Part shown: positions 1-36,806 of the stretch, piece after piece | Layout: every line of letters starts with the position of its first letter | How positions within the stretch are numbered: the first letter of the stretch is position 1 | IMG/VR virus record: IMGVR_UViG_3300020043_003657 | Span: 1 to 38,000 of that record | Length of the DNA stretch: 38,000 nucleotides | Direction: 5' to 3' (one strand) | From: a virus | Lineage: Duplodnaviria; Caudoviricetes | Translations under genes and position numbers: made by a program | The notes under the pieces: model-generated | Told to the model about the DNA's origin: nothing | What the model saw: the letters and a program-made list of their open reading frames with translations, nothing else | Databases searched by the model: none

Positions 1-111
1 TGAGTGATCTTCAACGCGGAGGCGCTGGGTGAATGCTGGGTAGGATGAGGTAGTGACGGAGCCTGGAGGTGCGTCGGGGAGGTGGTTGATTGAGGGAACG
101 ATGCGCTGAGC

Positions 112-375
112 GTGGGCGATACACCGAGAACAGACGAAGCAGCATTTGTGGCCCAAACGGGCATCAGAAAACATGACGTTGTAACTATTGCATTCTCGGA
201 AACTTTAGAACGCGAACTCAACGCCGCCAACGCCGAACTCGCAAAACTGAAAAAAGTCATCCGCAAAATCTATTACAAGACAGAAACCTACGCTGACGGA
301 GCGCCAGACGCCACCGCGCACGACAAACTCTGCAACGATATATCATGTGAACTCGAACGCTACATCAAAGCGTGA
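112..375 (+). CDS. small early phage protein (DTPRTD...LERELN type)
   Basis: 87-aa ORF with GTG start; the N-terminal DTPRTD and LERELNAAN resemble a common small phage protein. Confidence 0.65.
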   Translation: MGDTPRTDEAAFVAQTGIRKHDVVTIAFSETLERELNAANAELAKLKKVIRKIYYKTETYADGAPDATAHDKLCNDISCELERYIKA

Positions 376-437
376 AACTCTCGAAGGGACGATTATAGAA
401 ATTATAGTTTTTGCTAAAACAAATAATAAAATTTCTT

Positions 438-465
438 TTGCATTTTTCCCAATATCGCTTAACCT
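438..465 (+). promoter_or_regulatory. sigma70-like promoter
   Basis: TTGCAT-16 nt-TAACCT with an AT-rich UP-like tract upstream, ahead of the + strand operon. Confidence 0.55.
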
Positions 466-552
466 TTACCCTAGCCAAACGGCTAGATCAATTTGCCTTC
501 CGGCACTTTGCCACAGGCACTAACCAAAACAAACAAAACAAAACAAACGATA

Positions 553-1182
553 ATGAAATCCATCATCAACTCCACCTGCGAACTCGAACTCAACGTCACC
601 GTGCCAGCCTCCATCGCTGAAGCTGTCCAGCTTTTCGGTGAAGACGCTGTGCTCATGGCCGCCATTCGCCAAACCTTTTACGGCCCCTGGAACTCCCAGT
701 TCCGCCGTGAGTTTGCGAAGAAGCTCGAAGAAGTCACAGGCGTTGCCCGTCCTCAGCTCGTCCAAAACGGCGTGCCAGTCACTCGCTCAACCAAAGGCGG
801 TGAAGTTCCAGTGCTTGTCACTGAAGCCACCTACTTCAAGAAGCTCTTGCAGGATTCTGCGATCAGCTTTGAAGACTACGCCGTCACTGGTCAGCAAGTA
901 GCTGACTCCTTCAAGTTCGAGATCCCTGCCGCTGAACGTGAAGCTGCTCCCCACAAGGACTTCATCACACTGGCCAAGCAGATTCTCGCCAAGATCGAAG
1001 CTGGTGCTATCGGCACCGACGGTCAGCCTGTCACAGAAGACAGCATCACTGGCAAGCTTGAAGCCGCCAATCCTGGCCTTACCCTGGAGTCCATCGGTGG
1101 CTTCACTGTGGAAGGTCTGGCTCGCGCTCTTCAGATCGACGCCAAACGTCGCCAGCTGGAAGCCGCAAACAACCTGATCTAA
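553..1182 (+). CDS. hypothetical protein, probably highly expressed
   Basis: ATG at 553 follows a (CAAA)n leader and is preferred over the TTG at 493; strongly biased codon use. Confidence 0.85.
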   Translation: MKSIINSTCELELNVTVPASIAEAVQLFGEDAVLMAAIRQTFYGPWNSQFRREFAKKLEEVTGVARPQLVQNGVPVTRSTKGGEVPVLVTEATYFKKLLQDSAISFEDYAVTGQQVADSFKFEIPAAEREAAPHKDFITLAKQILAKIEAGAIGTDGQPVTEDSITGKLEAANPGLTLESIGGFTVEGLARALQIDAKRRQLEAANNLI

Positions 1183-1186
1183 TTCA

Positions 1187-1616
1187 GGCTGAGCTGAGCA
1201 TCTCGTTAAACTGCTCACCTTCAAATCAGCACACTGCAGTGAGGGCACATGTAGAGGATGTCGATGTAACCAAATGATCTACAAGCGTGAGCGACCTGAC
1301 CAGTGTGTTGATTTGAAGGTAAGAACGGCCCTAACAAAGGAGGCTTACCATCACCAGAGATTTGCTGATCCCACTGGCTAAAGGGACTGTCGGATGAAGG
1401 CTTCGAGCCTACCTTACACACGCAAGAGAGTCGTTATTAAATCAGACGTGTGGGGTTGCAGACACCCAAAGTGACATACTAGTTAAAGTCAACACTGCCG
1501 ACCGTGAGGGAACAATAGGTCGTTAAAGTCTTTCCCCTCTGGCTAACATTAAGCGTTTGGTATGTTAGTTATTACAAACAACCGCCAGCCTCGGCTCCGT
1601 CACTGTAACGACGGGC
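1187..1616 (+). ncRNA. putative structured non-coding RNA (long hairpin plus several H-type pseudoknots)
   Basis: 20-bp stem 1217-1236/1301-1320 with one G-U; four possible pseudoknots; no convincing ORF. Confidence 0.55.
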
Positions 1617-1625
1617 ACAAACACA

Positions 1626-1799
1626 ATGAACCCTACTACAATAGTTTATAAAAAAAAAGCTTATAAATCTTATTTTCATCCAGATTTCACACAGTGTAAA
1701 ACATGCTTCAAAATTCTAACGCTTAAAGCCATTACTTGTTGCAGTCAGCCTTTACTTCATAAACGAGTTCTTATTCTCAGAGACCGAGCAACCTGCTGA
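1626..1799 (+). CDS. small Cys-rich hypothetical protein (57 aa)
   Basis: Translated by hand: MNPTTIVYKKKAYKSYFHPDFTQCKTCFKILTLKAITCCSQ...; A/C-rich leader. Confidence 0.5.
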   Translation: MNPTTIVYKKKAYKSYFHPDFTQCKTCFKILTLKAITCCSQPLLHKRVLILRDRATC

Positions 1800-1816
1800 C
1801 AATGTGGTGGCTCAAC

Positions 1817-1890
1817 GAGTGGTGAACAGCAACTCTTGATCAGGGCGCTGCTAACTGGATTAGGTGGTTCGATTCCACCCCCACTCACCA
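1817..1890 (+). tRNA. non-canonical tRNA-like RNA or tRNA pseudogene (possible Ser-GCU loop)
   Basis: GAGTGG/CCACTC acceptor plus A-CCA; perfect T arm GGTGG-TTCGATT-CCACC; CTGCTAA loop; D and anticodon stems do not fold canonically. Confidence 0.6.
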
Positions 1891-2354: not shown

Positions 2355-2576
2355 ATGTCCTTCTTCTCTTCCCGCTCCACCCTTCGATCCCCATCCTATT
2401 CCTCTCCGCTAACTGACTTAACCGACAGGAAAATCAGGAACTACATTCTCGCCGGGAAGTATGGCGAAGAGAAGAAGGAAGCTTTGCTCAAGGCGATTGC
2501 TGCAAAGAAAGGTAAGAAGTCAAAATCAAAAGTCAAACTGCAAGTAAAGCTGAGCGACTTCAAACATGTGCTATGA
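2355..2576 (+). CDS. small Lys-rich hypothetical protein
   Basis: ATG at 2355 within ORF 1959..2576; ATGA overlap with the next gene. Confidence 0.7.
   Translation: MSFFSSRSTLRSPSYSSPLTDLTDRKIRNYILAGKYGEEKKEALLKAIAAKKGKKSKSKVKLQVKLSDFKHVL
2407..2423. repeat. palindromic site 1 (CGCTAA-CTGAC-TTAACC)
   Basis: Copy of the dispersed GGTTAA-N5-TTAACC motif at a C-rich to G-rich switch. Confidence 0.75.
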
Positions 2577-3589: not shown

Positions 3590-3851
3590 GTTCTTCTTCT
3601 GCACAAGCGTAGTCATTATCAACAGTCAAGGAAAAGTAACTATCCAGATTCGTTATCCTTTTGGCTTACCGCCAAGGGACTATGAACCTAAGTGGAGTTA
3701 CTACTCCGGTGACGACATCTATCGTTCAGTAAAATTCTCTACCCTCCCCACCATCAACACCATCATCTATGCAACAAATAATACTTCAGACAGATTACAA
3801 GCGCCCCGCGCCGGACTTAGCCAAACTTCGCAAGCTGTTCAAGTGGCGTGA
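3552..3851 (+). CDS. hypothetical protein
   Basis: ATG at 3552 with AGGAA upstream, within ORF 3414..3851; fills the gap before the nuclease gene. Confidence 0.45.
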   Translation: MKRLIRPWRTCFEFFFCTSVVIINSQGKVTIQIRYPFGLPPRDYEPKWSYYSGDDIYRSVKFSTLPTINTIIYATNNTSDRLQAPRAGLSQTSQAVQVA

Positions 3852-4827
3852 CGACGGCGATCTCGACCTGCACTTTGACTGGTCATCGCTTGAATGCTTC
3901 CTAAGCTGCAATCGCTCTGCGTTATACAAGCTCGTCCACTCCAAGACTTCCAAGGGTAAAGCTGCACTAACCTTCGGAGCAGCAATCCACGCAGCGCTGG
4001 AAGTTTATTACAAGCTCCACACCGATCCTGACAAAGCCAAAGTCTTACAGCTGTGCCGTCAAGCTATTGACAACGCTTTCGCTGAAGTGACCATCAGTTA
4101 CTTTGACGAATACCGCACACCTGACTACGCTTACTCTTGCTTCCTGCAATACATCCAGCACTACGCACAAGAGTCTCTTACTCCCATCGTTACCGCTGAC
4201 CGCCCGTTGATTGAGTTCTCATTCGCGTTCGACCTTGCAGAGATGAACATTCCAGCAAGTGTGTTCCACACCTACGGCTTGGGCATGCTTACCAACGAGC
4301 CAGAGAAAGAAGCTCAAGCTGTTGGTGACCTTCGCGTTCACGTCAAATGGACAGGCATCTGTGACCTTGTTGCTAACATCAACGGAGAGAACTGGCTCAT
4401 CGACCATAAGACTACGTCAATCCTTTCCTCTGATTTCTTTGATGGCTTCAACCTCGCAATGCAACCAATCGGTTATGTCTACGCTGCAAACTTAGCATTC
4501 CCCGAACTGGACATCGCTGGCTTCATGGTGAACACCCTCGCCTGCCGCAAGCCAACAAAGACTGGCAAGGGCTTTGAAGCTCATCGTTCATTCCATCGCT
4601 ACGAAGCATGGCAGTTCGATGAGTGGAAGTCAGACGCAACTAACCTAATCAGCGAGTTCGTCTACAACCTCACGTTAAACTCTTGGCCAAAGAAAACCAC
4701 GTGGTGCATTGGCAAGTACGGCAAGTGTCCTTTCCTGGATGTCTGCTCTCTACCACCAGCTCACCGCATTCACCTCCTCGACTCCGATCAATACGTCAAC
4801 AACACCTGGAAACCTGTATCTGCTTAA
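3769..4827 (+). CDS. PD-(D/E)XK exonuclease, Cas4/RecB-like
   Basis: FGAAIHAALE, GICDLV, LIDHKT, QPIGY motifs; N-terminal Cys plus C-terminal C-x6-C-x5-C, typical of Fe-S staple nucleases. Confidence 0.88.
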   Translation: MQQIILQTDYKRPAPDLAKLRKLFKWRDDGDLDLHFDWSSLECFLSCNRSALYKLVHSKTSKGKAALTFGAAIHAALEVYYKLHTDPDKAKVLQLCRQAIDNAFAEVTISYFDEYRTPDYAYSCFLQYIQHYAQESLTPIVTADRPLIEFSFAFDLAEMNIPASVFHTYGLGMLTNEPEKEAQAVGDLRVHVKWTGICDLVANINGENWLIDHKTTSILSSDFFDGFNLAMQPIGYVYAANLAFPELDIAGFMVNTLACRKPTKTGKGFEAHRSFHRYEAWQFDEWKSDATNLISEFVYNLTLNSWPKKTTWCIGKYGKCPFLDVCSLPPAHRIHLLDSDQYVNNTWKPVSA

Positions 4828-4830
4828 CCT

Positions 4831-5595
4831 ATGAAATCCTCCACTAACTTCACACCACGCCTCCCTCAATCCTTCCTGTTCATCGGCTCGCCCGGCTCAG
4901 GAAAAACAACCTTCGCACTCCAACTTCCAAAGGTCGGCATCATCGACTGCGATGACAATCTCGGTGGCTCAGTCCGCTACCTGCGCTCCATCAACAAGAT
5001 CAAACCATTTCACTACGACACACCCCTCCGTGATGCGAATGACAAACCTGTCCCTCGTGAGCAGCAGTTCACACAGGTCTGCAAGATCCTCGACGAGATG
5101 GTTGCTTCACCAGAAGTCGAGACTATCATCATCGACTCACTCTCCTCCCTCGTCGAGATGCTCTTCGCCCACGTTCTCTCCCAGATGAAACGTCCGATCT
5201 CTCCCGACCTGCGCATCGCCGATAAGAAATTCGAGTATGAAGACTGGGCAGCTTTCGGCAATCTCCTCCGCAAGTTCATCTTCAACCTCAAAGCCTGTGG
5301 CAAACGCTTTGGTCTTACCGCTCACACCAACGTCGATCAGGACGAACTAACCAAGATCCTCTACCGCTTCATCAACTGCCCTGGCGCTGTTCGCAACCAT
5401 CTCTCCGGCTGGTTCGAAGAAGCCTGGGAATTCTACATCTTTACTCAAGGCGTCCCACCTAACGAGAAAGCAATCCGCAAAATCCGCACAGTGCCAGACG
5501 CACGCTCAGTGAATCTCGGTCTCAAAACCTCCGCTGGCCTTGCTTCCACCCTCGACGCAGACGTAGATACAATCCTCTCCAAACTCAGCGCATGA
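4831..5595 (+). CDS. AAA_24/Sak4-like ATPase (recombination)
   Basis: Walker A GSPGSGKTT, Walker B IIIDSLS, TAH motif; lies between the exonuclease and SSB-like genes. Confidence 0.85.
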   Translation: MKSSTNFTPRLPQSFLFIGSPGSGKTTFALQLPKVGIIDCDDNLGGSVRYLRSINKIKPFHYDTPLRDANDKPVPREQQFTQVCKILDEMVASPEVETIIIDSLSSLVEMLFAHVLSQMKRPISPDLRIADKKFEYEDWAAFGNLLRKFIFNLKACGKRFGLTAHTNVDQDELTKILYRFINCPGAVRNHLSGWFEEAWEFYIFTQGVPPNEKAIRKIRTVPDARSVNLGLKTSAGLASTLDADVDTILSKLSA

Positions 5596-6226: not shown

Positions 6227-6266
6227 ACCAAAACACAAACAAAAACAAACAAACACAAAAAACAAT

Positions 6267-6743: not shown

Positions 6744-6752
6744 ACCCCACAC

Positions 6753-6782
6753 AGCGCTGGCAGACCGCTTTATAGTCTGCCA
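6753..6782 (+). promoter_or_regulatory. H-type RNA pseudoknot
   Basis: AGCG/CGCT stem 1, 1-nt loop, TGGCAGAC/GTCTGCCA stem 2. Confidence 0.7.
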
Positions 6783-6789
6783 CTTTCTT

Positions 6790-6969: not shown

Positions 6970-6970
6970 C

Positions 6971-7186
6971 ATGAAATACCTCGACCTCGCCCAGCGTCTC
7001 GAAGACCTCGATTCCCGCATCGCTCGTAACGACAAAGAATCCTCCACCAACTCTGCCCGCATCAACAGCCTCGAAAATCAAATCGAGACTGCCAAGAAAA
7101 AACAACGCGCCCTCCGCACAGCTCGCCTTACTCTCCTCGACGAGAAAGAAACCACAACGCGTGAGTTCAAAGCACGCCTCGGTTAA
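6971..7186 (+). CDS. coiled-coil hypothetical protein
   Basis: ATG at 6971; heptad-like pattern. Confidence 0.75.
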   Translation: MKYLDLAQRLEDLDSRIARNDKESSTNSARINSLENQIETAKKKQRALRTARLTLLDEKETTTREFKARLG

Positions 7187-7197
7187 GCTACTTAACC
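7181..7197. repeat. palindromic site 2 (GGTTAA-GCTAC-TTAACC, perfect arms)
   Basis: Consensus copy at a skew switch. Confidence 0.85.
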
Positions 7198-7205
7198 AAC
7201 ACTCT

Positions 7206-7239: not shown

Positions 7240-7264
7240 AACCAGTTAGTCAATTTAATCCTAT

Positions 7265-8770
7265 ATGTCAAAACTCAAAAAGCTCAAAGATGTAACTTAC
7301 CTGCCAATCACTGATGTAGTTGTAGGCGCACGGTTAAGAAAAGATTCACCGAATGTCAAAGCTATGGTGGAGGAGATTGCTAGGTCAATCAAAGACATTG
7401 GCCCATTGCAGCCTTTGATCTTGGACGAGAAGAACAACTTAATCGACGGTGGCTGCCGCTTTGCTGCTTATAGTTTGCTTGGAGCAGATGAAGTTCCAAT
7501 TGTTCGCCGGACTCGTGTATCAGCTGGTGCGAAGTTGGCTATGGAAGTTGAGGCTAACCTTCGCCGCAGTGACTTGACGTGGCAAGAGAAAGTCGAAGCT
7601 ATTGCACGCTATCATGAGCTGAAAACACAAGGTGCAGAGGAAGAAGGTAGCGAGTGGTCTCAGCGTGCTACAGGTTCTTTGCTCAAGGTGTCCAACGCGC
7701 ATGTGAGTAACTGCGTGCAGATGTGGCCTTTCCTCAAGAAGGGAGATCCAGAGATTTTGAAGTGTAGTTCTTTGCAAGAGGCGCAAGATGTATTGCTGGA
7801 ACGCAAGAAAAAGATGGCTGTGCAACATGCGCTGGCTGTTACTGCTATGGCACAACCAGAAGTGTTGCAGCAAATCACAGAGAAGAAGACAAGTGCTGCT
7901 CCTGTAGTGTTTGCTTTGGGTAAGGGTGAAAGCCTTGTGCCAGTGCAAGTCAAAGCTGCTGCGGCTGAGGTTAGTATGAGTGTTGGTATGACTCCACCTA
8001 AAGTTGTCGATCTCTCCAAGCTTTTGTTTAACGATGATTGCACTGAGTGGATGCTGCGTGCTCCACGTGATTCTGTCGATGTCATTGTCACTGATATTCC
8101 ATACGGCGTTGACATGGCTAACATGGAAGATATGAAAGGCATTGACATGATGAAAGCGACACATGAAGTCGAGGGCAATCTTGATCTGATGCCTAAGTTT
8201 ATCAAAGGTGCATTCCATATCCTGCGCCCTAACTCTTACCTTATCTTCTTCTATGCTCTCCAGCATCATGAGAAGCTGCGTAACTGGGGTGAAGATGCAG
8301 GATTCAAGGTGCAAGACTGGCCGTTGCTGTGGCTCAAACCACACAGCTGTAAGAACAATGCGCCACAGTGCAACTGGACTAAGTCCTTTGAGCCTGTGAT
8401 GATTATGAAGAAAGGTTCTCCAACGCTCAAGACGCCAATGACCAAATGCCACATGGAAGTTGACGGGATGCCAGACAAGAAGATGCAGTCAAATCCTTTT
8501 GCCAAGCCTCTGCATTTCCTCTCCGAAATGATCTTCAAGCCGCTAGGATTAGCTCCAGGTGCTATCTGTCTTGACCCTTTCTCCGGCGAAGGTTCAATCC
8601 TTAATGCAGCTATCCTTCATGGTCTGCAACCGATCGGTATCGAGCTAGACAAAGATCGTTTCCCTTCTCTTGTCGCTCGTGTCCAGCGCACCTACGCCAA
8701 AGCCTTCAACGCTAACTGCAAATTTATCCTACCAGAATATGAGAAGCAAGAACAAGTTTCCCTCCATTGA
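7265..8770 (+). CDS. ParB-N domain, HTH and N6/N4 DNA methyltransferase fusion
   Basis: IGPLQPL...LIDGGCR (ParB), WSQRATGSLLKVSNAHVS (HTH-like), TDIPYG (motif IV) before LDPFSGEGS (motif I), the beta-class order. Confidence 0.88.
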   Translation: MSKLKKLKDVTYLPITDVVVGARLRKDSPNVKAMVEEIARSIKDIGPLQPLILDEKNNLIDGGCRFAAYSLLGADEVPIVRRTRVSAGAKLAMEVEANLRRSDLTWQEKVEAIARYHELKTQGAEEEGSEWSQRATGSLLKVSNAHVSNCVQMWPFLKKGDPEILKCSSLQEAQDVLLERKKKMAVQHALAVTAMAQPEVLQQITEKKTSAAPVVFALGKGESLVPVQVKAAAAEVSMSVGMTPPKVVDLSKLLFNDDCTEWMLRAPRDSVDVIVTDIPYGVDMANMEDMKGIDMMKATHEVEGNLDLMPKFIKGAFHILRPNSYLIFFYALQHHEKLRNWGEDAGFKVQDWPLLWLKPHSCKNNAPQCNWTKSFEPVMIMKKGSPTLKTPMTKCHMEVDGMPDKKMQSNPFAKPLHFLSEMIFKPLGLAPGAICLDPFSGEGSILNAAILHGLQPIGIELDKDRFPSLVARVQRTYAKAFNANCKFILPEYEKQEQVSLH

Positions 8771-11132
8771 TACTCCTCGGCGCTTAGCCATCGTAGCTAC
8801 ACAGCCTTCTTCCCTCGAAGGCGCAAGCTGGAATCTTCTCCAGTCTGCTTTGCAAATGCAGAATGCTACGCTGGCTAGTTGCTTTGTGGGGTATGTTAAC
8901 TTGTTCAACACTACCGAAGAACAGATTGACTTCTCATCATTTGAGATTAAAGAAAGCCTAGAGGTTCTCAATGCAGACCTCAAGACTTTTAATCCTCATT
9001 GCATATTGTATCTTGGCGAACCAGCTTTGCAGTCACAACGCATCTATCATCCGATTCATTCGTATCGAGGCAGTCTTTACTCCAACGCCCAAGGCTTCAA
9101 AAGCCTCAGCACGTTTGATCCAAAGAAAGTGTTTCGTAACTGGGACTGGTCACCACTATTCATGTTTGATGTCAAACGTGCTGTAGAGCAGTCAGAGTTT
9201 CCTGAACTCAAACTTCCTAAGCGTCGTCTCCGCGCTATGATGACAGCTCAAGATTGCATCAACTCCCTGCGTGCAATTCCCAAAGGTCAGCTCATTGCAA
9301 TCGACATCGAAGGTGGTATTCCTAACCCACAAGAAACTAAACCTGAATACCGTTTTCCTAACGGTGTGACTTGTATCTCCATTGCAACCACACCAGAAGA
9401 CGCATTCATTGTTCCGCTCAAAGACTTCTCATCCTCTACCAAAGCCGAGGTTCTTCTCGCGCTGGCTGAAGTCTTATGCAGCAGAGACTATCCTAAAGTT
9501 CTACAAAACGGACTCTATGACTGGTTCTGCTTAGCCTGGCACTTCAAGCTCCCTGTCCGTAACATTGCATGGGACACAATGTTCTCTGGCTGGGAGATGT
9601 ATCCTGAGCTTCCAAAAGGTCTAGGCACTCAGACATCGCTTTACACCCTCGAACCATTCTACAAGTTCGAGCGTAAGGTCGATGACGATATGACTCATTA
9701 CACCTACTGCTGCAAGGACTCTGCTGTGACGCTTGAAATCCAACAAGCTCACGAAAAGCATTTCACCACTAGCCAGCGTGAGCACTTCGAGTTCAACATG
9801 TCAATCATGCCAGCTTTGCAGTTTATGATGCTTAAAGGTATCATCTACGATAAGCCAGCTTCCGATCAGCGCAAGGCAGAAATCCTATCTGAGATGCACG
9901 AGTTTCAAATCTCTTGCAATACTCTTGCAGGCCGAGAGATCAATCTCAACTCTCCTAAACAAATGTGTGATCTGCTTTACAAACAGTTTCGCTTTGAACC
10001 TGTTTACAAGAAAGAAGCAGGGCGCAAGACCAACAAGCTCACAGCTAACTCTGACGCTCTTCTCAAAACAATCGTCAAGCAAGGAGCTGACGCTCATCCG
10101 TTTCTGCTTAACGCTTTGTTGTGGAAGAAACTAGAAGGTGCGCGCAAGCAGCTTGAGATCACACTGGACTATGACAAACGTGTTCGTTGCTCTTACAACA
10201 TTGTAGGCACAGACACCGGGCGTCTTTCCTGTCAAGGTTCCTCCACTGGTTCAGGTGACAACCTTCAAACTATTATGGAGGCTAACCGCAAGTTCTACAA
10301 ACCAGACCCCGGCTACCTCTTCTTTCAGTGTGACTTATCTGGTGCTGACGGTTGGACAGTTGCAGTTCACTGTGCAGAGCTTGGCGACCCTACAATGCTA
10401 GATGACTACTACGCTGGACTCAAGCCAGCTAAGATCATTGCAGCAATGCAGTCTCATGGTGCCGCTATCAACAAGCTCTCCCGTCCCGAACTCAAAGCAT
10501 TCTTCAAGTCTGCTGAGCTTGCTCCTGAAGTCTACGCCGCAGCCAAAGCCGTTCAGCACGGTTCTAACTACGGCATGAAACCACAGCGCATGTCAGAAAA
10601 CATTCTCGAAAAATCTTTCAAGAAGTCCGATGACCATCGCATTGTCTGGATTCCTCCAACCCTTTGCGCCCAGCTCCAAGCCTACTATTTCATCCGCTAC
10701 CCCGGTGTGAAGCGTTGGCAAAACTGGGTGGAAGCTGAGGTCAATCGCACCTCATCTCTTCCTTCAGCTTCTGGTCATACTCGTATCTTCTTTGGTCGTC
10801 CTCGTGACGAAGCAACCTACCGCCTAGCCTACGCACACGAACCACAGCAGAACACCACCTATGCCACTAACCTCGCAATGCGTGCTCTCTGGCGTGACCC
10901 AGAAAACCGCACATCTGACGGGTCGCTCATTATTCAACCACTTCACTCAGTCCACGATGCTTTGTGCGGTCAGTTCCCTATCGACAAAACTGAGTGGGCC
11001 GTAGAAAAAATCCGCTCTTACTTCCGCAATCCAATCCGCATCCGCAACACCGAGGTCACCATCCCATTCGAGGGCGGCGCTGGTGACTCCTGGTATCACA
11101 CCAAAGAAGACAACGCACTCGTCCGTATATGA
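8739..11132 (+). CDS. polA: DNA polymerase family A with N-terminal UDG-like and 3'-5' exonuclease domains
   Basis: Exo motifs DIE, QNGLYD, YCCKD; TGRLS; motif A CDLSGAD, motif B K-x3-HG-x2-YG, motif C VHD; probable start ATG 8739. Confidence 0.95.
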   Translation: MRSKNKFPSIDTPRRLAIVATQPSSLEGASWNLLQSALQMQNATLASCFVGYVNLFNTTEEQIDFSSFEIKESLEVLNADLKTFNPHCILYLGEPALQSQRIYHPIHSYRGSLYSNAQGFKSLSTFDPKKVFRNWDWSPLFMFDVKRAVEQSEFPELKLPKRRLRAMMTAQDCINSLRAIPKGQLIAIDIEGGIPNPQETKPEYRFPNGVTCISIATTPEDAFIVPLKDFSSSTKAEVLLALAEVLCSRDYPKVLQNGLYDWFCLAWHFKLPVRNIAWDTMFSGWEMYPELPKGLGTQTSLYTLEPFYKFERKVDDDMTHYTYCCKDSAVTLEIQQAHEKHFTTSQREHFEFNMSIMPALQFMMLKGIIYDKPASDQRKAEILSEMHEFQISCNTLAGREINLNSPKQMCDLLYKQFRFEPVYKKEAGRKTNKLTANSDALLKTIVKQGADAHPFLLNALLWKKLEGARKQLEITLDYDKRVRCSYNIVGTDTGRLSCQGSSTGSGDNLQTIMEANRKFYKPDPGYLFFQCDLSGADGWTVAVHCAELGDPTMLDDYYAGLKPAKIIAAMQSHGAAINKLSRPELKAFFKSAELAPEVYAAAKAVQHGSNYGMKPQRMSENILEKSFKKSDDHRIVWIPPTLCAQLQAYYFIRYPGVKRWQNWVEAEVNRTSSLPSASGHTRIFFGRPRDEATYRLAYAHEPQQNTTYATNLAMRALWRDPENRTSDGSLIIQPLHSVHDALCGQFPIDKTEWAVEKIRSYFRNPIRIRNTEVTIPFEGGAGDSWYHTKEDNALVRI

Positions 11133-11332: not shown

Positions 11333-11550
11333 TCTCTTCCCAAGAAGCTACACTCATGAGGCTTCACCTCCTCACACAACTTCAAAACGATCCCTTCGTT
11401 GACATCAGACAAGAAAACGTAGACAAGATGTTCACCGACTCCGAGCACCTTGAACGCTGGGCTAAAGGTAATGACACTAAGTTTGAAAAATTCAACCGCC
11501 CAGACTTTCCAACCAAATACTCACACTGGATGCGCTTTCGCAAACTATGA
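11329..11550 (+). CDS. hypothetical protein
   Basis: 73-aa ORF with ATGA coupling. Confidence 0.7.
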   Translation: MISSQEATLMRLHLLTQLQNDPFVDIRQENVDKMFTDSEHLERWAKGNDTKFEKFNRPDFPTKYSHWMRFRKL

Positions 11551-12383
11551 AACCAATGCTCGCCCACAGGTTTAACGACCACAAATCAAAGCTACCTCCA
11601 ACCTTCTTTGTCCAGCCAAAGCTCAATGGCATTCGCGCACTCTACAACAACTCTACCTTCCAATCTCGCGACGAAGTTATCTGGCATCCATCAGTCCTCG
11701 CACACCTCACTGCCCAACTCCAACTCCTCGCCCCACCCCACATTATCCTAGACGGCGAACTCTACCACCACGGTTGGTCTCTTCAAAAGATCAACAGTGC
11801 TGTCTCGGTTAACCGACTTACCCCACACAAAAACACACCAGACATTCAATACCATGTCTTTGATTTAGTTGATACGTCACAACCAAACTTACCATTCAGC
11901 TCCCGCGCTTGGATGTTAAACTCGTTGCTTGAGCGGACGATCTTGCACAACACTCCACACGTCAAGGTTGTTCCCACTATGGAGTGCACTATCCCTCTTG
12001 CTGAAGTTCAGTATGCTTTATACAAAGCTGCTGACTACGAGGGTCTTATGTATCGCCATCCCGACGCGCCTTATGGTTTGCTTCAGAATTGTGGTAACAA
12101 ACAAAATCGTTGGGCCTGTCTTCTCAAGCGCAAAGACTGGATGGACGATGACTTTGAGATTACTGACTTTGAAACTACCACAGGCGACAAAGGATTCCGA
12201 GGCTTCAAGCTCACCTGCCGCGCGCAGAATGGTAACTACTTCCGCGTTGGCAGTGGCCTTGCCTCTGAAGAAGTAGATGAGTTTGAACACACACCTCCAA
12301 TCGGCCGCAAAGCTAAAGTAAAGTATGAAATGCTATCTGACGATGGCACACCGTTAAAGCCAACTCTCGAAGCGATTATATGA
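11547..12383 (+). CDS. lig: ATP-dependent DNA ligase
   Basis: QPKLNGIR (motif I), LDGELY, YHVFD, EGLMYR, LLKRK, OB-fold VGSG. Confidence 0.95.
   Translation: MKPMLAHRFNDHKSKLPPTFFVQPKLNGIRALYNNSTFQSRDEVIWHPSVLAHLTAQLQLLAPPHIILDGELYHHGWSLQKINSAVSVNRLTPHKNTPDIQYHVFDLVDTSQPNLPFSSRAWMLNSLLERTILHNTPHVKVVPTMECTIPLAEVQYALYKAADYEGLMYRHPDAPYGLLQNCGNKQNRWACLLKRKDWMDDDFEITDFETTTGDKGFRGFKLTCRAQNGNYFRVGSGLASEEVDEFEHTPPIGRKAKVKYEMLSDDGTPLKPTLEAII
11807..11823. repeat. palindromic site 3 (GGTTAA-CCGAC-TTACCC)
   Basis: Inside the ligase gene at a moderate skew switch. Confidence 0.75.
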
Positions 12384-13654
12384 ACTTCCTTGACGACTAC
12401 GCAATCTTCTCCTCCGGCGATGAAGCCCCACCAGACTTTCACTTCTGGGCTGGACTCTCCGCCTTATCCGCCTGCTGTGGACCAAACCTTTGGTTAGACA
12501 TGGGTAAATACAACCTCCAACCTAACCTTTACATTATGCTTGTCGGACCTCCTGGCATTCGTAAATCCACAGCAAAAAACGTTGCGCAGTCAATCATTGC
12601 AGGGATTAAAAACATTCCGATGGTGCCATCTTCCATCACCAAGGAAGCATTTGTCAAAGAGCTCAGCCAAGAAAAGTCCCGTCACAAGATGGTCTATCAA
12701 TGGCTAGGCAAGCCTCGCTCTTACACCAAGGCCGCCATCATGTCAGACGAGTTTGTCAATCTTGTCTCTCATGGTGGCGATCCTCTCGGTTACATCCAGC
12801 TTCTCACAGAAATCTATAACCCCACTCCAACCTTTGAAACCACAACAATCTCACGCGGCAAAACCGAAATGCCGTATCCATACATCTCGCTCCTCGGCTG
12901 CATCACACCAGAGCTAACCTCCAATCTCATCAACCAAGGCGCGCTCTCCGGCGGATTCTCTCGACGCACTCTTTACATCTATTGCAACCGCAATGGCAAA
13001 CCTGTTCCGCGCCCTGTCCTCACCGACGATCAAGTTCACGCCAAAGATCGACTAATCCAGCGCGGTCGAATGATTCAATGTCTCAACGGTCCATTTAAGT
13101 TCTCCGACGCTGGTGATCGCTACTACACCAACTGGTATAACGAAAACTTCTATGGCCTCCAAGAAGCATCCACAACCGCTATTGCCAACTTCCTACAATC
13201 CAAAGCTGACCAAGTTCTCAAAGTTGCAATGCTGCGTCGTATAGCAGAGCACGATGATCTTATCCTTGACGTGCCAGAATTAGAGTTCGCTCGTCGCCAT
13301 GTTGACCAAGCACAAACCCACATCAACACTGTCTTTGCCGCAGCAGGACGCAATCCACACGCTGCTACCATTGCAGGCATCCTCTCCTTTGTCAATCAGC
13401 GCACTACAGTCTCCCCACACTACGTCACCGAGAAACGCATCATCGGCAACTTCATCAAAGACGCTCCATCCCAGGTTATCACCGACATCCTCAAGTCGCT
13501 AGTAAACAGCGAACCCCCACAGCTACACCTCAAAGGTCTAACTGTAGGGGTCAACCACTTGCAAGTCTATACATCACCTGCAAACCTTCCATCCTTCCTC
13601 CGCACTACCGGAGCATCCAAGGGTCAGACTCCGCCCGGTAATCTTCTAGCATAG
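12380..13654 (+). CDS. DUF3987-like P-loop NTPase (putative replicative helicase)
   Basis: PNLYIMLVGPPGIRKSTA Walker A, MSDEF Walker B, GGFSRR arginine-finger-like motif. Confidence 0.8.
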   Translation: MNFLDDYAIFSSGDEAPPDFHFWAGLSALSACCGPNLWLDMGKYNLQPNLYIMLVGPPGIRKSTAKNVAQSIIAGIKNIPMVPSSITKEAFVKELSQEKSRHKMVYQWLGKPRSYTKAAIMSDEFVNLVSHGGDPLGYIQLLTEIYNPTPTFETTTISRGKTEMPYPYISLLGCITPELTSNLINQGALSGGFSRRTLYIYCNRNGKPVPRPVLTDDQVHAKDRLIQRGRMIQCLNGPFKFSDAGDRYYTNWYNENFYGLQEASTTAIANFLQSKADQVLKVAMLRRIAEHDDLILDVPELEFARRHVDQAQTHINTVFAAAGRNPHAATIAGILSFVNQRTTVSPHYVTEKRIIGNFIKDAPSQVITDILKSLVNSEPPQLHLKGLTVGVNHLQVYTSPANLPSFLRTTGASKGQTPPGNLLA

Positions 13655-25860: not shown

Positions 25861-25869
25861 TTACTTCTC

Positions 25870-25886
25870 GGTTAAGTTACTTATTC
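25870..25886. repeat. palindromic site 7 (GGTTAA-GTTAC-TTATTC)
   Basis: Intergenic copy at a skew switch. Confidence 0.7.
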
Positions 25887-25890
25887 CACA

Positions 25891-29004: not shown

Positions 29005-30790
29005 CGCGTTTAAATTGATCTAAGTTTTTAACTCCCCTAAGCTCCTGAATCCTCATAATCATCTTCACCACATCCAAGTTCGTAGCCGCCAGCATCTCAG
29101 GATTACCCATCAAAGCAATCACCAGCTCCTGAAGACTCTGAGCAAGGAACCCTTTCTCGCTCTGACTCGTAGCGTCAAACACAAAAAAGTCTTCATTACC
29201 CACAAGCTCCCACCAGTTATCCTTATGGAACTTCTCCCAAGCCTCCAACGTCTCATCACTCTCCTCGCCCACAATCTTATGGAACGTCTCTTCACTCATC
29301 CACTGCCTTGCATTGTTAAGAATCACTCGACCCATAGGCCCAAGCGCCATCTCCCAAATATTAGACCCGATCAGCTTCAACCGACTCCCACCACCAGCTG
29401 CCACGTTCCTAGCCTCCGTAGCGCTTCTCCTTCCACTAGCAAAATTCCCCATTGCATTCTCCGTCACCCCACTCACCGTCTGCATCACTCGCATCAACTC
29501 CTGTGCATCCTGCACATGCGTCACAGTCGGATCAGTCGTCCTTAACTGCTGAATGAAGTTCTGCACACCACCCATAGCCGGAGCACTCTTCTTCAACCGA
29601 ATGAACGGACTCCGCGTCATCAAATCTTCCACCTCAATGAACTGAGGATGAACCACCAGCTGCTTCTCAATGTTGTTCTTAACAGCCTCAATCCTCGAGT
29701 TCATCAACCACGTCACAGTATCCTGCAACTTGTCAATCACACCACTTAAGCTATCGCAAGGTCGCGCATGCAAATCAGAACTGAGCATCCCAGCAAAATA
29801 TGTAAAACGCATATTCGCATCTTCCATCTTCTCCGCCCTCACAATCCTCTTATCATTCGCTAGCTCAAGCACCCACAGCTCCTCCTCATCACTCTCGCTC
29901 AGCTTATACTCACTTGGCACCAGCTTCCGCTGCACAGTGGTCACAGCCACCATAAAGTTATCCTCACTCTTACCAGTATCCTTCGACGGATCAAAGCCTT
30001 CCAGCCTTGTCTCACCTCGCTCCTCATACTCCCGAGTTGACATCCGCTCCACATGCTCAGCACCAAACACACCATTCCGGCGCTTCAGCTCCCTCACATG
30101 CATCACAGTCTCATCTGCCACAAACTCTCCCTCTTCCCACCGCATCAACGGCAGCCTCGTATCAGGATACCAGTTATACGGACTAACATTATACACCTTC
30201 GTCCCCTCACACACCGTCACTTCAATCTCTTGGTTAACTGGGTTAACCGACAGCTCATCAGCCATGGAGGTTGGTGAGAAGAACGAGATGATGGAAGCAG
30301 ACTCGGGAGAGGCTTCGACTTTGATCGTGCGGTATTCCCAGGAGGTTTTGAAGACTCCAAGGGAGAAGCGTGCAACGTCTAGGTTGAAAGCGTAGATTTT
30401 GGAGTAAAGGCGGTTAGTGCGAACCTCGCGCTCAAGGATTGCTTCGTTGGTTTCTTTCAGGTCGTAGTCTTCAGAGCCAGAGGCTTCGACTTCAAAGAGC
30501 GTTGGATTCTGGGCGAAGAGAGAAGTGATGAAGGTTGCAAAGGTGTTGACCTGAGCGTAGGAAAGTGGGATGATCTGCTTGGCTGGCTCGCGCTTTTTCT
30601 TTGCACGAACGTCCTTGGCATCTTCGTCAGATTGCTGTTGGTAGATTTCAAGAGCATGATCCCAGTCGGCGTAGAATCTACCCATGTATGTGCGACTGCG
30701 TTTGAGATCGCGCACGCATTCTTGAAGGAGAGATTGGAGATCCTCGTCTTGTTCCTCTTGGGAGAGACGATCGGTTAGGTCTTTAGTCAT
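28895..30790 (-). CDS. portal protein
   Basis: 631 aa after TerL; VSPYNWYPD, VSGVTENAMG...RRSATE podoviral portal motifs. Confidence 0.9.
   Translation of the reverse strand: MTKDLTDRLSQEEQDEDLQSLLQECVRDLKRSRTYMGRFYADWDHALEIYQQQSDEDAKDVRAKKKREPAKQIIPLSYAQVNTFATFITSLFAQNPTLFEVEASGSEDYDLKETNEAILEREVRTNRLYSKIYAFNLDVARFSLGVFKTSWEYRTIKVEASPESASIISFFSPTSMADELSVNPVNQEIEVTVCEGTKVYNVSPYNWYPDTRLPLMRWEEGEFVADETVMHVRELKRRNGVFGAEHVERMSTREYEERGETRLEGFDPSKDTGKSEDNFMVAVTTVQRKLVPSEYKLSESDEEELWVLELANDKRIVRAEKMEDANMRFTYFAGMLSSDLHARPCDSLSGVIDKLQDTVTWLMNSRIEAVKNNIEKQLVVHPQFIEVEDLMTRSPFIRLKKSAPAMGGVQNFIQQLRTTDPTVTHVQDAQELMRVMQTVSGVTENAMGNFASGRRSATEARNVAAGGGSRLKLIGSNIWEMALGPMGRVILNNARQWMSEETFHKIVGEESDETLEAWEKFHKDNWWELVGNEDFFVFDATSQSEKGFLAQSLQELVIALMGNPEMLAATNLDVVKMIMRIQELRGVKNLDQFKRDEQPINNIGGLPGQAELGGPPQPIPGGGSIPPQLPV
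30232..30248. repeat. palindromic site 8 (GGTTAA-CTGGG-TTAACC, perfect arms)
   Basis: Inside the portal gene at a very sharp skew switch. Confidence 0.85.
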
Positions 30791-34150: not shown

Positions 34151-35464
34151 TTAAATTCGGAATAGTTGAAGGGTTGCGCCAGCGGAAACCGTGACGGAGT
34201 TTGCTCCTCCAGTTTCAGCCGCAAAACGAATGGCAAACGTTCCTGTGGCAGTAGCCACAAATCGGCCTGAAATCGTCCACCTTGAAATGAGAGGCAAGGT
34301 TGGGCTAATTGTTGCAGTGACTTTTGTATCGTAAGCTGTAACTGCGCCGTTTGTTAAACTGCCTGCTGCGTTTGTAGCAATACTTATTTGTCCGTTAATT
34401 GACGATGCCGTTGGCCCATTGATAGCCATTGACATTCCCTCACCTGAAACACTTCCGCCATATAAACCTGTCGCGAAGAATCCGTAAGTGCCAGTTGCCC
34501 CTACTGTTGCCGTCAACAAATCGGCCAACGTAGTCGATGAGCTTGTGGAGTCTGAAGATGTGGCATTATAAACAGCGGAAGATCCGCCAGCAGCCCACTT
34601 CACGCCGCTGGCTTCTGCGCTGTCCACCGTCAAGACATGACCGTTAGTGCCTCCCACAGCCACGCGGATGTTGTCAGCGCCGTTGTGGACGATGAGGTCG
34701 CCTTTGGTCGTCGTTGGTGCCAGCGCATCAAAGGCTGCGGTTTTAGCCGTTTGGCCTGTGCCGCCGTTGGCGATGGCGGTGGTGGGTAGCGCCGAGTAAA
34801 TCAAGTCGCCTGATGTTGCAACCCCTGTGACGAATTGCCCCGGACTACCTGAACTGGAGTAAACTCCGCCCAAGTTTGTCGTTAAGGGGCCGGGGATGGT
34901 AGCGGCGTTAATGTTTGTTAACTGACTTCCATCTGCTTCAGCCAACCTCGATATAGCATCAGCACCAGCGGTAGAAATTGAAAAACTAAAATCAGTCGGG
35001 AGTGAGCTACCGTTACCTGGAGCCGCTCCAGCCGTAAGATTAGTTACCGTAAAACTCCCACTATACGAAGGAATCGCAGAAAACGCCGCCGACTGAGAAG
35101 AGAGCGCTATAATGAAAGCCGCTTCCACGTCAGTTGGGCTAGATCCATCACTAACAGCTACGACCTGCAACCTCCCGGGAGATGGTGCTGATGGAGCAGA
35201 CCCACCTCCATCCACTGTGAACCAAAAGCGACAAACTTCAGTGCCGTCGTCAATATCGACATACTCACCAGCCCAGCTATTTGTTGCTGAATTCTGCACC
35301 GACACCACAACAACCTGCGCTACAGCGGCTATGATTTCACTAACCCCAAGAGCGACTCTGGCTGCTGGTGCTGTCGTGCTACCAGTCCCACCATTCGCCA
35401 CACTAACTGGCAAATCAACTCCACTACCGCCACCACCACTTCCAGGAGTATCAAGAATAATCAT
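34151..35464 (-). CDS. tail fibre / receptor-binding protein
   Basis: Two ANGGTG repeats, TTKGDLI...GTNGHVLT...GVKW module, Gly/Ser/Thr/Ala-rich, beta-sandwich-like C-terminus. Confidence 0.85.
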   Translation of the reverse strand: MIILDTPGSGGGGSGVDLPVSVANGGTGSTTAPAARVALGVSEIIAAVAQVVVVSVQNSATNSWAGEYVDIDDGTEVCRFWFTVDGGGSAPSAPSPGRLQVVAVSDGSSPTDVEAAFIIALSSQSAAFSAIPSYSGSFTVTNLTAGAAPGNGSSLPTDFSFSISTAGADAISRLAEADGSQLTNINAATIPGPLTTNLGGVYSSSGSPGQFVTGVATSGDLIYSALPTTAIANGGTGQTAKTAAFDALAPTTTKGDLIVHNGADNIRVAVGGTNGHVLTVDSAEASGVKWAAGGSSAVYNATSSDSTSSSTTLADLLTATVGATGTYGFFATGLYGGSVSGEGMSMAINGPTASSINGQISIATNAAGSLTNGAVTAYDTKVTATISPTLPLISRWTISGRFVATATGTFAIRFAAETGGANSVTVSAGATLQLFRI

Positions 35465-35467
35465 AAG

Positions 35468-35758
35468 TTACCACCTCCCACAGTTGATGTTTACAGCTCC
35501 ACCTGAGTTCTGCCAAACAAACCATTCAGCATTCACCAGAAAGCTATCACCACCTGAGTTCTGCACCACCAAACTCGCAGGAGCCGTCGCACCACCGGCC
35601 GGAGGCAGGTAAAACTCAGCCGCATCAGCAGCCGCGCCACACCTCATCCTCAATCCAGTCGTCGTATTAAAGTTTTGAAACCACACAGCGTGGCAGAACA
35701 CAGCCTCAACCTTCTCCAGCACCTTTGTGCTTGCATTATTTGGAACAGCTACAGTCAT
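35468..35758 (-). CDS. small hypothetical virion protein
   Basis: 96-aa ORF directly upstream of the fibre gene. Confidence 0.75.
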   Translation of the reverse strand: MTVAVPNNASTKVLEKVEAVFCHAVWFQNFNTTTGLRMRCGAAADAAEFYLPPAGGATAPASLVVQNSGGDSFLVNAEWFVWQNSGGAVNINCGRW

Positions 35759-35771
35759 AAATTTCTTTGTG

Positions 35772-35788
35772 GTTTAAGTTAATTAGCC
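35772..35788. repeat. palindromic site 9 (GTTTAA-GTTAA-TTAGCC)
   Basis: Overlaps the TerS stop codon at a sharp skew switch. Confidence 0.7.
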
Positions 35789-36295
35789 CACCTGCGGAGC
35801 GGATTGTGTCATGCCCAGTTCTTTTCGGAGAGATTCGATTTCCTCGTCTTCGCGTTGTTTAGGGCGGGAGGAGTTGGAGTGGACTACGTTTTGTGAAGGG
35901 CGTCCGAGGGTGCGGTCTAGGATTTCTTTTGCTGCCTGGAGACGGACTGTCTCGGAAGAAGCGGAGTGAAGGAGAGTTTGAAGGACGAGGATTGCGTCAG
36001 CGCTCGCAGAGTGGAGCTGGGAGAGTTCGTAGGAACCTGCAACACGGTCAATGGAGGCGGAGGAAAGTTGCTCGCGGGCCTCAGGGGTGGTCAGGTAGGA
36101 TTGGATTTCTCTAACTGGGCGGTTGAGCGAGCGGGAGATCTCGTAGAGAGACTGGCCGGAGGCAGAAAGTAGGACAGCACTGCGGTGCCAAGGGAGGGCG
36201 ATGGAGGTGAGGACGGTGGGAGCGGGTGAGGCTTCATCGTCTAGGAGGGCGACCGCAGGCTGTCGGGAAGGAGTGAGGATAAGGGGTTCACTCAT
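35783..36295 (-). CDS. terS: terminase small subunit-like protein
   Basis: HTH SLYEISRSLN plus SETVRLQAAKEILDRTLGRP; first large gene of the late arm. Confidence 0.65.
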   Translation of the reverse strand: MSEPLILTPSRQPAVALLDDEASPAPTVLTSIALPWHRSAVLLSASGQSLYEISRSLNRPVREIQSYLTTPEAREQLSSASIDRVAGSYELSQLHSASADAILVLQTLLHSASSETVRLQAAKEILDRTLGRPSQNVVHSNSSRPKQREDEEIESLRKELGMTQSAPQVG

Positions 36296-36378
36296 GGCTT
36301 GGTTAAGAGCACTGTGAGGTTATCGCGGGAAGTCACGATGACAATTTTGGGCTGTTTAGGTGTGATCGTGGGGCGCAT
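36292..36378 (-). CDS. 28-aa leader ORF, possibly leaderless
   Basis: MRPTITPKQPKIVIVTSRDNLTVLLTKP; ATG 5 nt after a -10 box; ATGA coupling to terS. Confidence 0.5.
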   Translation of the reverse strand: MRPTITPKQPKIVIVTSRDNLTVLLTKP

Positions 36379-36383
36379 GGGGT

Positions 36384-36411
36384 AAGGTAGCAAGGGGAAG
36401 GGAAAAGGAAA
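36384..36411 (-). promoter_or_regulatory. putative late-arm promoter
   Basis: TTTCCT-16 nt-TACCTT with extended TG and an AT-rich upstream tract; resembles the promoter at 438-465. Confidence 0.5.
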
Positions 36412-36634
36412 GCGGGATTTATTATTTTTTCTTAGGGCAGTGGACACCATGACGGATAAGCTACCCGCCCAAGCGCCCGCCCGCCCCTAGCAAGCCCGCC
36501 TTGCCCCTTTCCTTCGCGTTTTAGCCCCCTTTACCGCCCGCCCGCTATCATCACCCTAACCCAAAACAGCCCCTTTATTTCGCCTTATTGCGACCCCGTC
36601 TCAACACCCTCCTCAACTCCTCCTTCCTCCTCTC

Positions 36635-36651
36635 GTTTAACCTACTTATCC
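36635..36651. repeat. palindromic site 10 (GTTTAA-CCTAC-TTATCC)
   Basis: Intergenic copy at the end of a strongly C-rich tract. Confidence 0.7.
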
Positions 36652-36806
36652 CACAGCCTTCGGTTTGAGTTAGCTTTTTTTTTGGTTAGGGTTACTCCGC
36701 GCGTGGTAGAGGGATATATTAACACCCCCACACCCCGGCTGGGTAGGGAACCCCTTTTAGCTTATAGGTGAGGGGGGGCGGGAAGCACTCCGGGGGCTCG
36801 GGGCCA

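What the first reader, a model, noticed from the sequence alone, without database searches (positions are those of the whole stretch)
1..36800. Sawtooth GC/keto skew that jumps at the palindromic sites, like many bidirectional origins in one small genome
Seen: the + strand is C/A-rich just left of sites 1-10 and G/T-rich to the right, then decays until the next site, regardless of gene direction and even mid-gene. Hand counts per 60-nt line: 16981 has 5G:25C versus 17161 with 22G:4C; 29941 has 7G:20C versus 30361 with 23G:7C; 7081 has 10G:23C versus 7321 with 19G:9C. The jump is weaker at site 3 and unclear at site 11. The G-rich first 115 nt predicts another site just upstream of the window. 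Established: an upward G>C jump is the polarity at bacterial replication origins and is commonly attributed to deamination of exposed ssDNA. Inference: each site starts a polar, two-directional process such as priming with strand displacement, helicase loading, or nicking and resection. I know of no described phage with about 10 such skew domains.
Basis: partly seen in the sequence, partly recalled or inferred. Interest (0 to 1): 0.9.

Follow-up and report, generated by a model that had tools for sequence, protein, structure and literature searches.

The report
Phage docking sites imprint strand asymmetry
In this freshwater phage and many relatives, evenly spaced 23-base palindromes, likely bound by the phage's own ParB-methyltransferase, each flip which DNA strand is poor in cytosine for about a kilobase on both sides, a footprint that would result if DNA copying started at a dozen points instead of one.

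Summary
The sawtooth is real. In this 38-kb podovirus record, G/C skew jumps upward at 10 of 11 copies of a 23-bp palindrome, most strongly at four-fold degenerate sites (0 of 20,000 random site sets match). It is mainly G/C skew; T/A moves little. 24 of 55 records of this phage group show it, each at its own lineage-specific palindrome. The jump follows the site: 88 of 91 in-gene sites are positive against 56 of 169 orthologous places without a site. The sites are not hairpins. They are likely docking sites of a ParB-HTH-methyltransferase fusion encoded directly upstream of PolA. The switch is sharp and decays over about 1-1.3 kb; both C>T and A>G are raised on the outward strand, as on single-stranded DNA. 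The phage has an MCM-fold helicase and a ligase; no primase was found. Best reading (45%): each site starts outward DNA synthesis on both strands. Main rival (25%): a polar sliding-clamp modification. Many relatives keep the sites but lack the skew, so the sites alone do not prove origins. Not found in the ten literature searches made.

The parts
2404..2426 (.). Palindromic site 1 (intergenic)
   Evidence: jump +0.45
7178..7200 (.). Site 2, 65 bp upstream of the ParB-methyltransferase gene
   Evidence: jump +0.41
11804..11826 (.). Site 3, inside the ligase gene (weak jump)
   Evidence: jump +0.32
13761..13783 (.). Site 4, inside the 2660-aa gene
   Evidence: jump +0.40
17066..17088 (.). Site 5, inside the 2660-aa gene; same place in 7 of the relatives where it could be mapped
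   Evidence: jump +0.76
20601..20623 (.). Site 6, inside the 2660-aa gene
   Evidence: jump +0.55
25867..25889 (.). Site 7 (intergenic)
   Evidence: jump +0.60
30229..30251 (.). Site 8, inside the portal gene
   Evidence: jump +0.74
35769..35791 (.). Site 9, at the end of the small terminase gene
   Evidence: jump +0.71
36632..36654 (.). Site 10 (intergenic); jump seen only at short range
37368..37390 (.). Site 11; no jump; 37 bp from the start of an inverted duplication
7265..8770 (+). ParB-CTPase fold + HTH + beta-class DNA methyltransferase fusion (501 aa), likely binder of the sites
8739..11132 (+). Family A DNA polymerase with N-terminal UDG-like and 3'-5' exonuclease domains; overlaps the end of the ParB-methyltransferase gene
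   Evidence: domains from a relative's copy and the alignment
11547..12383 (+). ATP-dependent DNA ligase
12380..13654 (+). DUF3987 helicase, MCM-like AAA+ fold with C-terminal winged helix
6267..6743 (+). Likely single-strand binding protein (weak hit for a relative's copy)
   Evidence: E 0.006
3769..5595 (+). PD-(D/E)XK exonuclease and Sak4-like annealing protein

Best explanation
The genome carries evenly spaced 23-bp palindromes at which strand asymmetry flips sharply; they are likely docking sites of the phage's ParB-HTH-methyltransferase, and the docked protein likely starts DNA synthesis outward on both strands, which would leave the outward-pointing strand single-stranded for about a kilobase. 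Steps: (1) sites exist and set the skew: shown. (2) The ParB fusion binds them as a dimer: inferred from domains and from co-variation of its recognition helix with the motif. (3) It brings PolA and/or the MCM-fold helicase to the site in both orientations: inferred from gene adjacency, absence of a detected primase and precedent. (4) The inward strand is copied at once, the outward strand waits and suffers C and A deamination: inferred from the spectrum. (5) The phage ligase joins the stretches made from neighbouring sites: inferred from co-occurrence.
For: Polarity is that of replication origins (PMC3320577 passages). The switch is complete within 12-24 bp of the centre, so the process starts at the site with a fixed orientation. 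It is equal on both sides and for C on coding or template strands. Outward/inward rate ratios are 1.33 (1.15-1.55) for C>T and 1.62 (1.43-1.82) for A>G, assuming stationarity: the pair of transitions that PMC8565317 (abstract) ties to single-strand exposure. All sequence contexts are affected, unlike a narrow methylase target. The helicase model matches MCM best (Z 19.1, rmsd 3.1, 249 aligned). No primase was found, although PMC4889955 reports one in 98% of polymerase-encoding viruses. The fusion gene lies within 1 kb upstream of PolA in 104 of 114 loci. 22 of 23 genomes with both ligase and the H-x-C methylase loop are skewed, 0 of 22 others (post hoc). Precedents: a PolA that primes at a site with a partner (PMC7581432); methylases that work with PolI on one strand (PMC7736820).
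Against: 23 relatives keep the lattice, PolA and helicase type without a jump. Amplitude saturates for gaps above 3.2 kb and decays over 1-1.5 kb, close to the 1.5-kb reach of the KorB clamp (PMC11790492 abstract) and not the straight line of efficient origins. Flanks are not AT-rich. G/C contrast at four-fold sites (1.42) is seven times T/A (0.20), which transitions alone do not give. Parsimony-polarised changes show no C>T asymmetry (226/1804 vs 354/2952, ratio 1.04) and a modest A>G one (1.24). Site strength does not predict jump size (rho 0.08, n 151). The window lacks roughly 6-8 kb of early genes, and a divergent or host primase is not excluded. No nascent-strand or coverage data exist here.
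Confidence: 0.45

Rival explanations
1. Polar clamp footprint: the ParB-methyltransferase loads at each site, slides 1-1.5 kb each way and marks or protects one strand per direction; the skew is a by-product of that mark (or of repair it directs), not of initiation.
For: Range matches KorB sliding. Relatives with altered or lost methylase (G021, G023, G025, G030) keep sites but lose the skew; 0 of 18 new genomes without the loop cysteine are skewed. Of 4,216 alignment columns, the two best that classify the five off-tree genomes correctly are both in the methylase domain. The effect is about halved for C preceded by G. Synonymous G+C is higher near sites than far away. The lattice is general in the group, which fits a self-methylation purpose.
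Against: A two-fold symmetric clamp on a palindrome has no memory of direction (reasoning). Both C>T and A>G are biased, not one base. The prediction written failed in part: only 5 of 12 new cysteine-bearing genomes are skewed (5 of 10 with a clear motif). Many capsid, portal and terminase columns track the skew as well overall, so the link may be kinship.
Confidence: 0.25
2. Phased lagging strands: forks start elsewhere and run both ways; the site-bound protein fixes where lagging-strand fragments are primed or where forks pause, and the phasing fades over one fragment length.
For: Distance to the next site 3' on a strand explains more than distance from the 5' site (log-likelihood gain 945 vs 684). 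A saturating exposure model is the second-best fit (AIC 123,720 vs 123,662). Ligase co-occurs. Exonuclease and Sak4 allow recombination-started forks in both directions (inference).
Against: Needs forks of equal frequency both ways all along the genome. A pure exposure model, with amplitude growing with gap length, is rejected. No primase found.
Confidence: 0.15
3. Divergent transcription or R-loops from each site expose the non-template strand both ways.
For: It predicts the same polarity (reasoning); ParB-family KorB acts on transcription.
Against: Amplitude is alike on sense and antisense sides; coding strands are C-rich, not G-rich, away from sites; none of 20 sigma-70-like matches in 13-31.5 kb lies at a site, and 20 is the chance number; five sites are mid-gene.
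Confidence: 0.05
4. Artefact of codon or amino-acid usage, mosaic boundaries or assembly.
For: Codon preference shifts the baseline between the two gene arms; the last 600 bp of the record may be chimeric.
Against: Strongest at four-fold sites; orthologous places without a site show no jump (log odds -0.14, 56 of 169 positive); seen without gene models (237 of 261 sites); independent contigs cover the region.
Confidence: 0.02

Closest known systems
Replication-origin skew jumps: bacterial oriC and human N-domains (PMC3320577, passages)
   Same: Upward skew jump at fixed points with decline between them; G excess on the strand pointing away from the point.
   Different: Spacing 2-5 kb in a 45-kb phage instead of megabases; decay of fixed range about 1-1.3 kb, not linear to the next jump; initiation not shown here. 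Large phages are described with bidirectional or unidirectional skew only (PMC7162821, passages).
ParB/parS, Noc/NBS and KorB/OB CTP clamps (PMC11790492 abstract; PMC12704722 passages)
   Same: ParB-CTPase fold plus HTH, dispersed palindromic sites, reach of about 1.5 kb.
   Different: C-terminus is a methyltransferase; no ParA found; 23-bp lineage-specific sites; a strand-polar footprint was not found described for these clamps in my searches.
Mitochondrial strand-displacement gradient (PMC8565317, abstract)
   Same: Both transitions biased on one strand, with a gradient bounded by fixed sites.
   Different: Two origins and one exposed strand there; here a dozen symmetric sites that are not hairpins.
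SCCmec Cch2 + CCPol-MP module (PMC7581432, abstract and Discussion part 1)
   Same: A-family polymerase plus ring helicase with no DnaG or AEP primase; priming at a protein-bound site.
   Different: One origin read by the helicase itself; CCPol lacks exonuclease domains, this PolA has them; no MP homolog tested.
M.EcoGIX / M.BceJIII single-strand methyltransferases (PMC7736820, abstract and Discussion part 1)
   Same: A methylase acting with an A-family polymerase and marking one strand only.
   Different: No ParB/HTH loader or site lattice there; homology to this enzyme was not tested.

Membership tests
ParB-family CTP clamp (ParB/Noc/KorB) | ParB-CTPase fold with GxxR and ENxxR motifs | tested here: met
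   Motifs in alignments; profile hits Noc E 5.6e-16 and Spo0J E 2.1e-15; model matches Noc
ParB-family CTP clamp (ParB/Noc/KorB) | HTH domain reading a palindromic site | tested here: inconclusive
   HTH present; its recognition-helix window ranks 14 of 4,832 for co-variation with the motif and is the best window of this protein; binding not shown
ParB-family CTP clamp (ParB/Noc/KorB) | CTP-gated loading and sliding | not testable with these tools
   Needs biochemistry
Canonical ParABS partition system | ParA partner and C-terminal dimerisation domain | tested here: not met
   No ParA among 39 window ORFs; the C-terminal part is a methylase; the record is incomplete
Beta-class N6-adenine/N4-cytosine methyltransferase | DPPY-type catalytic motif before the FxGxG-type SAM motif | tested here: met
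   D277, P279 and G441 invariant in 89 of 89 homologs; fold matches CcrM, HpyAVI, PvuII, N4CMT
Beta-class N6-adenine/N4-cytosine methyltransferase | Target base and sequence | not testable with these tools
   Only an indirect context effect
MCM / SF6 helicase | MCM-type AAA+ domain with C-terminal winged helix | tested here: met
   Top 11 structural matches are MCMs, Z 16.2-19.1; winged-helix matches for residues about 320-405; Foldseek E 1.8e-7
MCM / SF6 helicase | N-terminal domain used for head-to-head double hexamers | tested here: not met
   The AAA+ match starts at residue 1 of 424; no N-terminal domain
Bidirectional replication origin | Upward G>C jump, symmetric on both sides | tested here: met
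Bidirectional replication origin | AT-rich unwinding element beside the initiator site | tested here: not met
   Pooled flanks 12-120 bp from the centre hold about 48-51% A+T, like the genomes
Bidirectional replication origin | Nascent-strand starts, bubbles or autonomous replication | not testable with these tools
   Only contigs are held for the runs found; they give no local depth or ends
Hairpin priming signal or hairpin promoter (G4 ori, ssi, N4 promoter; recalled) | Selected intra-strand stem | tested here: not met
   74 of 110 arm pairs vs 75.5 +/- 2.6 when arms are shuffled among sites; 3 of 11 sites predicted unfolded
Fork barrier (Ter-like) or break-and-resect hotspot (recalled) | Downward skew jump at the site | tested here: not met
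   Jumps are upward; no shared palindrome at downward jumps

The most novel reading that the evidence does not exclude
A large group of small tailed phages replicates from a lattice of a dozen origins, specified by a ParB-type clamp fused to a methyltransferase that acts as initiator, with an MCM-fold helicase, a PolA that primes without a primase, and a ligase to join the pieces: eukaryote-style multi-origin replication in a 45-kb phage.
Probability: 0.3. Interest if true: 0.93.

Novelty: new variant of a known kind. Interest (0 to 1): 0.8.

Why it matters
ParB-methyltransferase fusions are common in phages and have no established function (PMC12704722 passages only suggest anti-defence or host interaction). 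Here their likely sites carry a measurable, directional, kilobase-range footprint that moves with the site and is present or absent by lineage. Either reading would be new: many initiation points in a small primase-less phage genome, or a clamp enzyme that treats the two strands differently on each side of a symmetric site. The pairs of skewed and flat relatives (for example G032 or G022 against G021) make the cause directly testable. The footprint also lets such sites be found from composition alone: a de novo search at upward jumps recovered the motif at 34 of 35 jumps.

Tried and rejected
Hairpin function of the sites: no excess pairing. Motif alone as cause: 25 unrelated viral loci with an exact consensus match show no consistent jump. 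Other binders: the conserved 94-aa gene at 3133-3417 (best co-variation 0.24) and the helicase (0.41, not in its winged helix) rank below the ParB helix (0.53); the 94-aa gene first seemed confined to skewed genomes, but a profile search found it in flat ones too. State of the UDG-like domain of PolA does not track the skew. UvrD helicase occurs in only part of the skewed group. The cysteine-loop prediction held as necessary, not as sufficient. Linear and gap-scaled decay models fit worse than a fixed-range one. G003 shows jumps with motif-like sites, but the held-out motif found only 2 sites (p 0.12); it was left out of the genome tallies. Eight of the 55 records had neither a clear motif nor a skew and were dropped before the counts; G006 was left out of pooled fits as a probable double record. 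Host: two scans of bacterial and archaeal genomes gave nothing usable; no cultured close relative (best PolA identity about 25%). No RNA holder listed. No tRNA or Rfam match. Atlas look-ups of two conserved unknown proteins gave leads under 0.9 only. A search for the left-end gene found no related viral locus. A complex prediction of the methylase domain with PolA was not available, so that contact is untested. Spacing is more even than random in 29 of 35 genomes, but the motif search kept seed sites apart, which favours evenness a little.
Full report
WHAT THE WINDOW IS. The window is a whole 38,000-base virus record. It encodes an SU10-type capsid and portal, terminases and a 2660-aa protein on the minus strand, and on the plus strand an exonuclease, Sak4, a ParB-methyltransferase fusion, PolA, ATP ligase and a DUF3987 helicase. 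Complete relatives are 43-48 kb, so about 6-8 kb of early genes are missing. Runs that hold it are labelled freshwater, lake, aquatic, wastewater or sludge. The host was not found.

THE OBSERVATION. An iterated profile finds 11 sites of 23 bp, consensus gTnGGtTAAg-n3-cTTAaCCnAc. With 500-bp flanks G/C skew jumps +0.32 to +0.76 at sites 1-9; site 10 jumps only at short range and site 11 not at all. At four-fold sites the mean jump is 1.04 against 0.02 +/- 0.15; 0 of 20,000 random sets and 0 of 1,898 shifts reach it. T-A moves far less (0.09-0.11 over all bases). Five sites are mid-gene. Contigs of 4 of 4 independent runs cover 13.5-33.4 kb.

RELATIVES. I scored 55 records, the window included: 25 and 30 more. 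24 show the jump (log odds 0.6-2.0, z 3-9). A de novo palindrome search at upward jumps recovered a 23-bp motif at 18 of 18 jumps in the nearest group and 34 of 35 in the next, and nothing at downward jumps. Motifs trained on other genomes found sites with positive jumps in 13 of 14 held-out genomes (0 of 10,000 random sets; G003 the exception). Searches blind to skew found a separate palindrome lattice in most records. Sites turn over between lineages and the jump follows: own in-gene sites 88 of 91 positive (log odds 1.24), shared sites 49 of 51, orthologous places without a site 56 of 169 (-0.14). Without gene models, 237 of 261 sites in 23 skewed records are positive, against 90 of 210 in 23 flat ones; intergenic bases show it too (G/C 0.13, T/A 0.01). 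Exact motif matches in 25 unrelated viral loci show no consistent jump. The skewed records form one clade (support 0.99) plus G020 and G039, and the trait is lost in G021 inside that clade; relatives are therefore not independent replicates.

WHAT BINDS THE SITES. The arms pair no more than shuffled arms (74 of 110 vs 75.5), so the sites look like operators for a dimer on double-stranded DNA. The 501-aa fusion has a ParB-CTPase fold, an HTH and a beta-class methylase with intact motifs. Its recognition-helix window ranks 14 of 4,832 protein windows for co-variation with the motif after removing kinship, and is the best window of that protein; chance windows in portal, capsid and terminase score as high or higher, so this counts only because the helix was the prior candidate. 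Eight earlier AI notes on other genomes reach the same idea; I read them after my own test, they are not independent proof, and none mentions skew.

SHAPE AND SPECTRUM. The switch is in place 12-24 bp from the centre. In the window an exponential decay of about 1.2 kb fits best (AIC 8,951 vs 8,971 gap-scaled, 8,989 linear, 9,452 null). Pooled over 14 records the lengths are about 0.9 and 1.3 kb, with a saturating exposure model next. Near-site amplitude rises from 0.11 to 0.17 with gap length and is flat above 3.2 kb. All contexts are affected; the effect is about halved where C follows G (repeated clearly for C/T, weakly for G/A). Unpolarised strain pairs give outward/inward ratios of 1.33 for C>T and 1.62 for A>G if composition is stationary (9,790 codons, 1,841 differences, 69 blocks). 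Parsimony polarisation with distant outgroups gives 1.04 and 1.24, a weaker result. At four-fold sites G/C contrast is 1.42 and T/A 0.20, so transversions must be biased too; this is unexplained.

MECHANISM. The process starts at the site, keeps its orientation, is symmetric and has a fixed range. Shown: that much. Inferred: that the outward strand is left single-stranded. The helicase folds like MCM with a winged helix but no N-terminal domain; PMC4889955 (passages) classes DUF3987 as MCM-related and usually tied to a primase, and PMC11724360 (passages) shows one to be a 5'-3' helicase. No primase appeared among 39 window ORFs, 26 conserved-family representatives or 71 ORFs of six relatives. 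The fusion gene overlaps PolA here and lies within 1 kb of it in 104 of 114 loci. I commit to outward DNA synthesis starting at each site (45%). The clamp-footprint rival (25%) is favoured by the range and by the methylase link: I predicted before looking that a loop cysteine would mark skewed genomes; 0 of 18 without it were skewed but only 5 of 12 with it. After the fact, ligase plus an H-x-C loop separates 22 of 23 from 0 of 22; many kinship markers do about as well overall, though the two best columns for the five off-tree genomes are in the methylase. Phasing of lagging-strand priming on passing forks (15%) cannot be told from true initiation by sequence.

COMPARISON WITH WHAT IS KNOWN. 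It works like origin-bounded skew domains (PMC3320577, passages) and the mitochondrial gradient (PMC8565317, abstract). PMC6263442 (abstract) supports deamination as a source of replication skew. It uses parts like KorB, whose clamp reaches 1.5 kb (PMC11790492, abstract), CCPol-MP/Cch2 (PMC7581432, abstract and Discussion part 1) and PolI-coupled single-strand methylases (PMC7736820, abstract and Discussion part 1). PMC12704722 (passages) lists ParB-methylase fusions as phage-enriched with a function only suggested; PMC13229309 (abstract) shows a phage ParB without DNA-binding domain activating a base-modifying enzyme. PMC7162821 (passages) describes bidirectional and unidirectional skew in large phages. 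It is not a ParABS system, not a hairpin signal, and not shown to be an origin. Ten full-text searches (listings read) returned no report of a site-locked skew lattice in a phage or of a target for these fusions; the library lacks most subscription papers, and no supplements were read. The T4, N4, G4 and Ter comparisons are recalled, not from calls.

VERDICT. A real, strong and conserved feature with a likely binder and an open mechanism. Novelty: new variant of a known kind, categorically new if the initiator reading holds (30%). Interest 0.8.

Noticed in passing
window 34583-35156 and 37427-38000: 574-bp inverted duplication (93%) of part of a tail-fibre-like gene, starting 37 bp after site 11. 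G002 has a different inverted duplication of the small-terminase region at 68%. No contig bridged the window's junction; it may be real or chimeric.
   Followed up: partly
window 1-115: G-rich start (54 G, 16 C) with no match among fetched loci. In five relatives a site lies about 90-190 bp upstream of the homolog of the 553-1182 gene; the window has none there.
   Followed up: partly
G017-G062: Most ParB-methyltransferase phages examined carry 4-20 copies of their own odd-length palindrome, found without using skew; each lineage has a different core.
   Followed up: yes
G052, G025, G021, G049: Slightly inverted polarity at the sites (log odds -0.38, -0.28, -0.17, -0.22; z -4.4 to -2.3), which hints that a polar process exists in 'flat' genomes too.
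   Followed up: partly
G023 (L140:6901-7587): The fusion has lost its methylase domain, the ligase is missing and a separate Dam-like D12 methylase sits beside the helicase; the sites remain.
   Followed up: partly
window 3133-3417: Conserved 94-aa protein that resembles a ribbon-helix-helix DNA binder (resemblance recalled, no database hit).
   Followed up: partly
window 518-546, 6219-6267, 27830-27862, 28694-28722: A-rich tracts directly upstream of gene starts on both arms, possibly translation enhancers of the host type.
   Followed up: no
G001 6691-9098: PolA is split into two overlapping ORFs of 590 and 246 codons.
   Followed up: no
G006: 63.6-kb record with two diverged copies of the structural module; probably two related genomes joined.
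   Followed up: no
G018 (L117, L118): Carries an ECF-like sigma factor, a response regulator, a GH114 hydrolase and an LPD37 domain in the giant protein.
   Followed up: no
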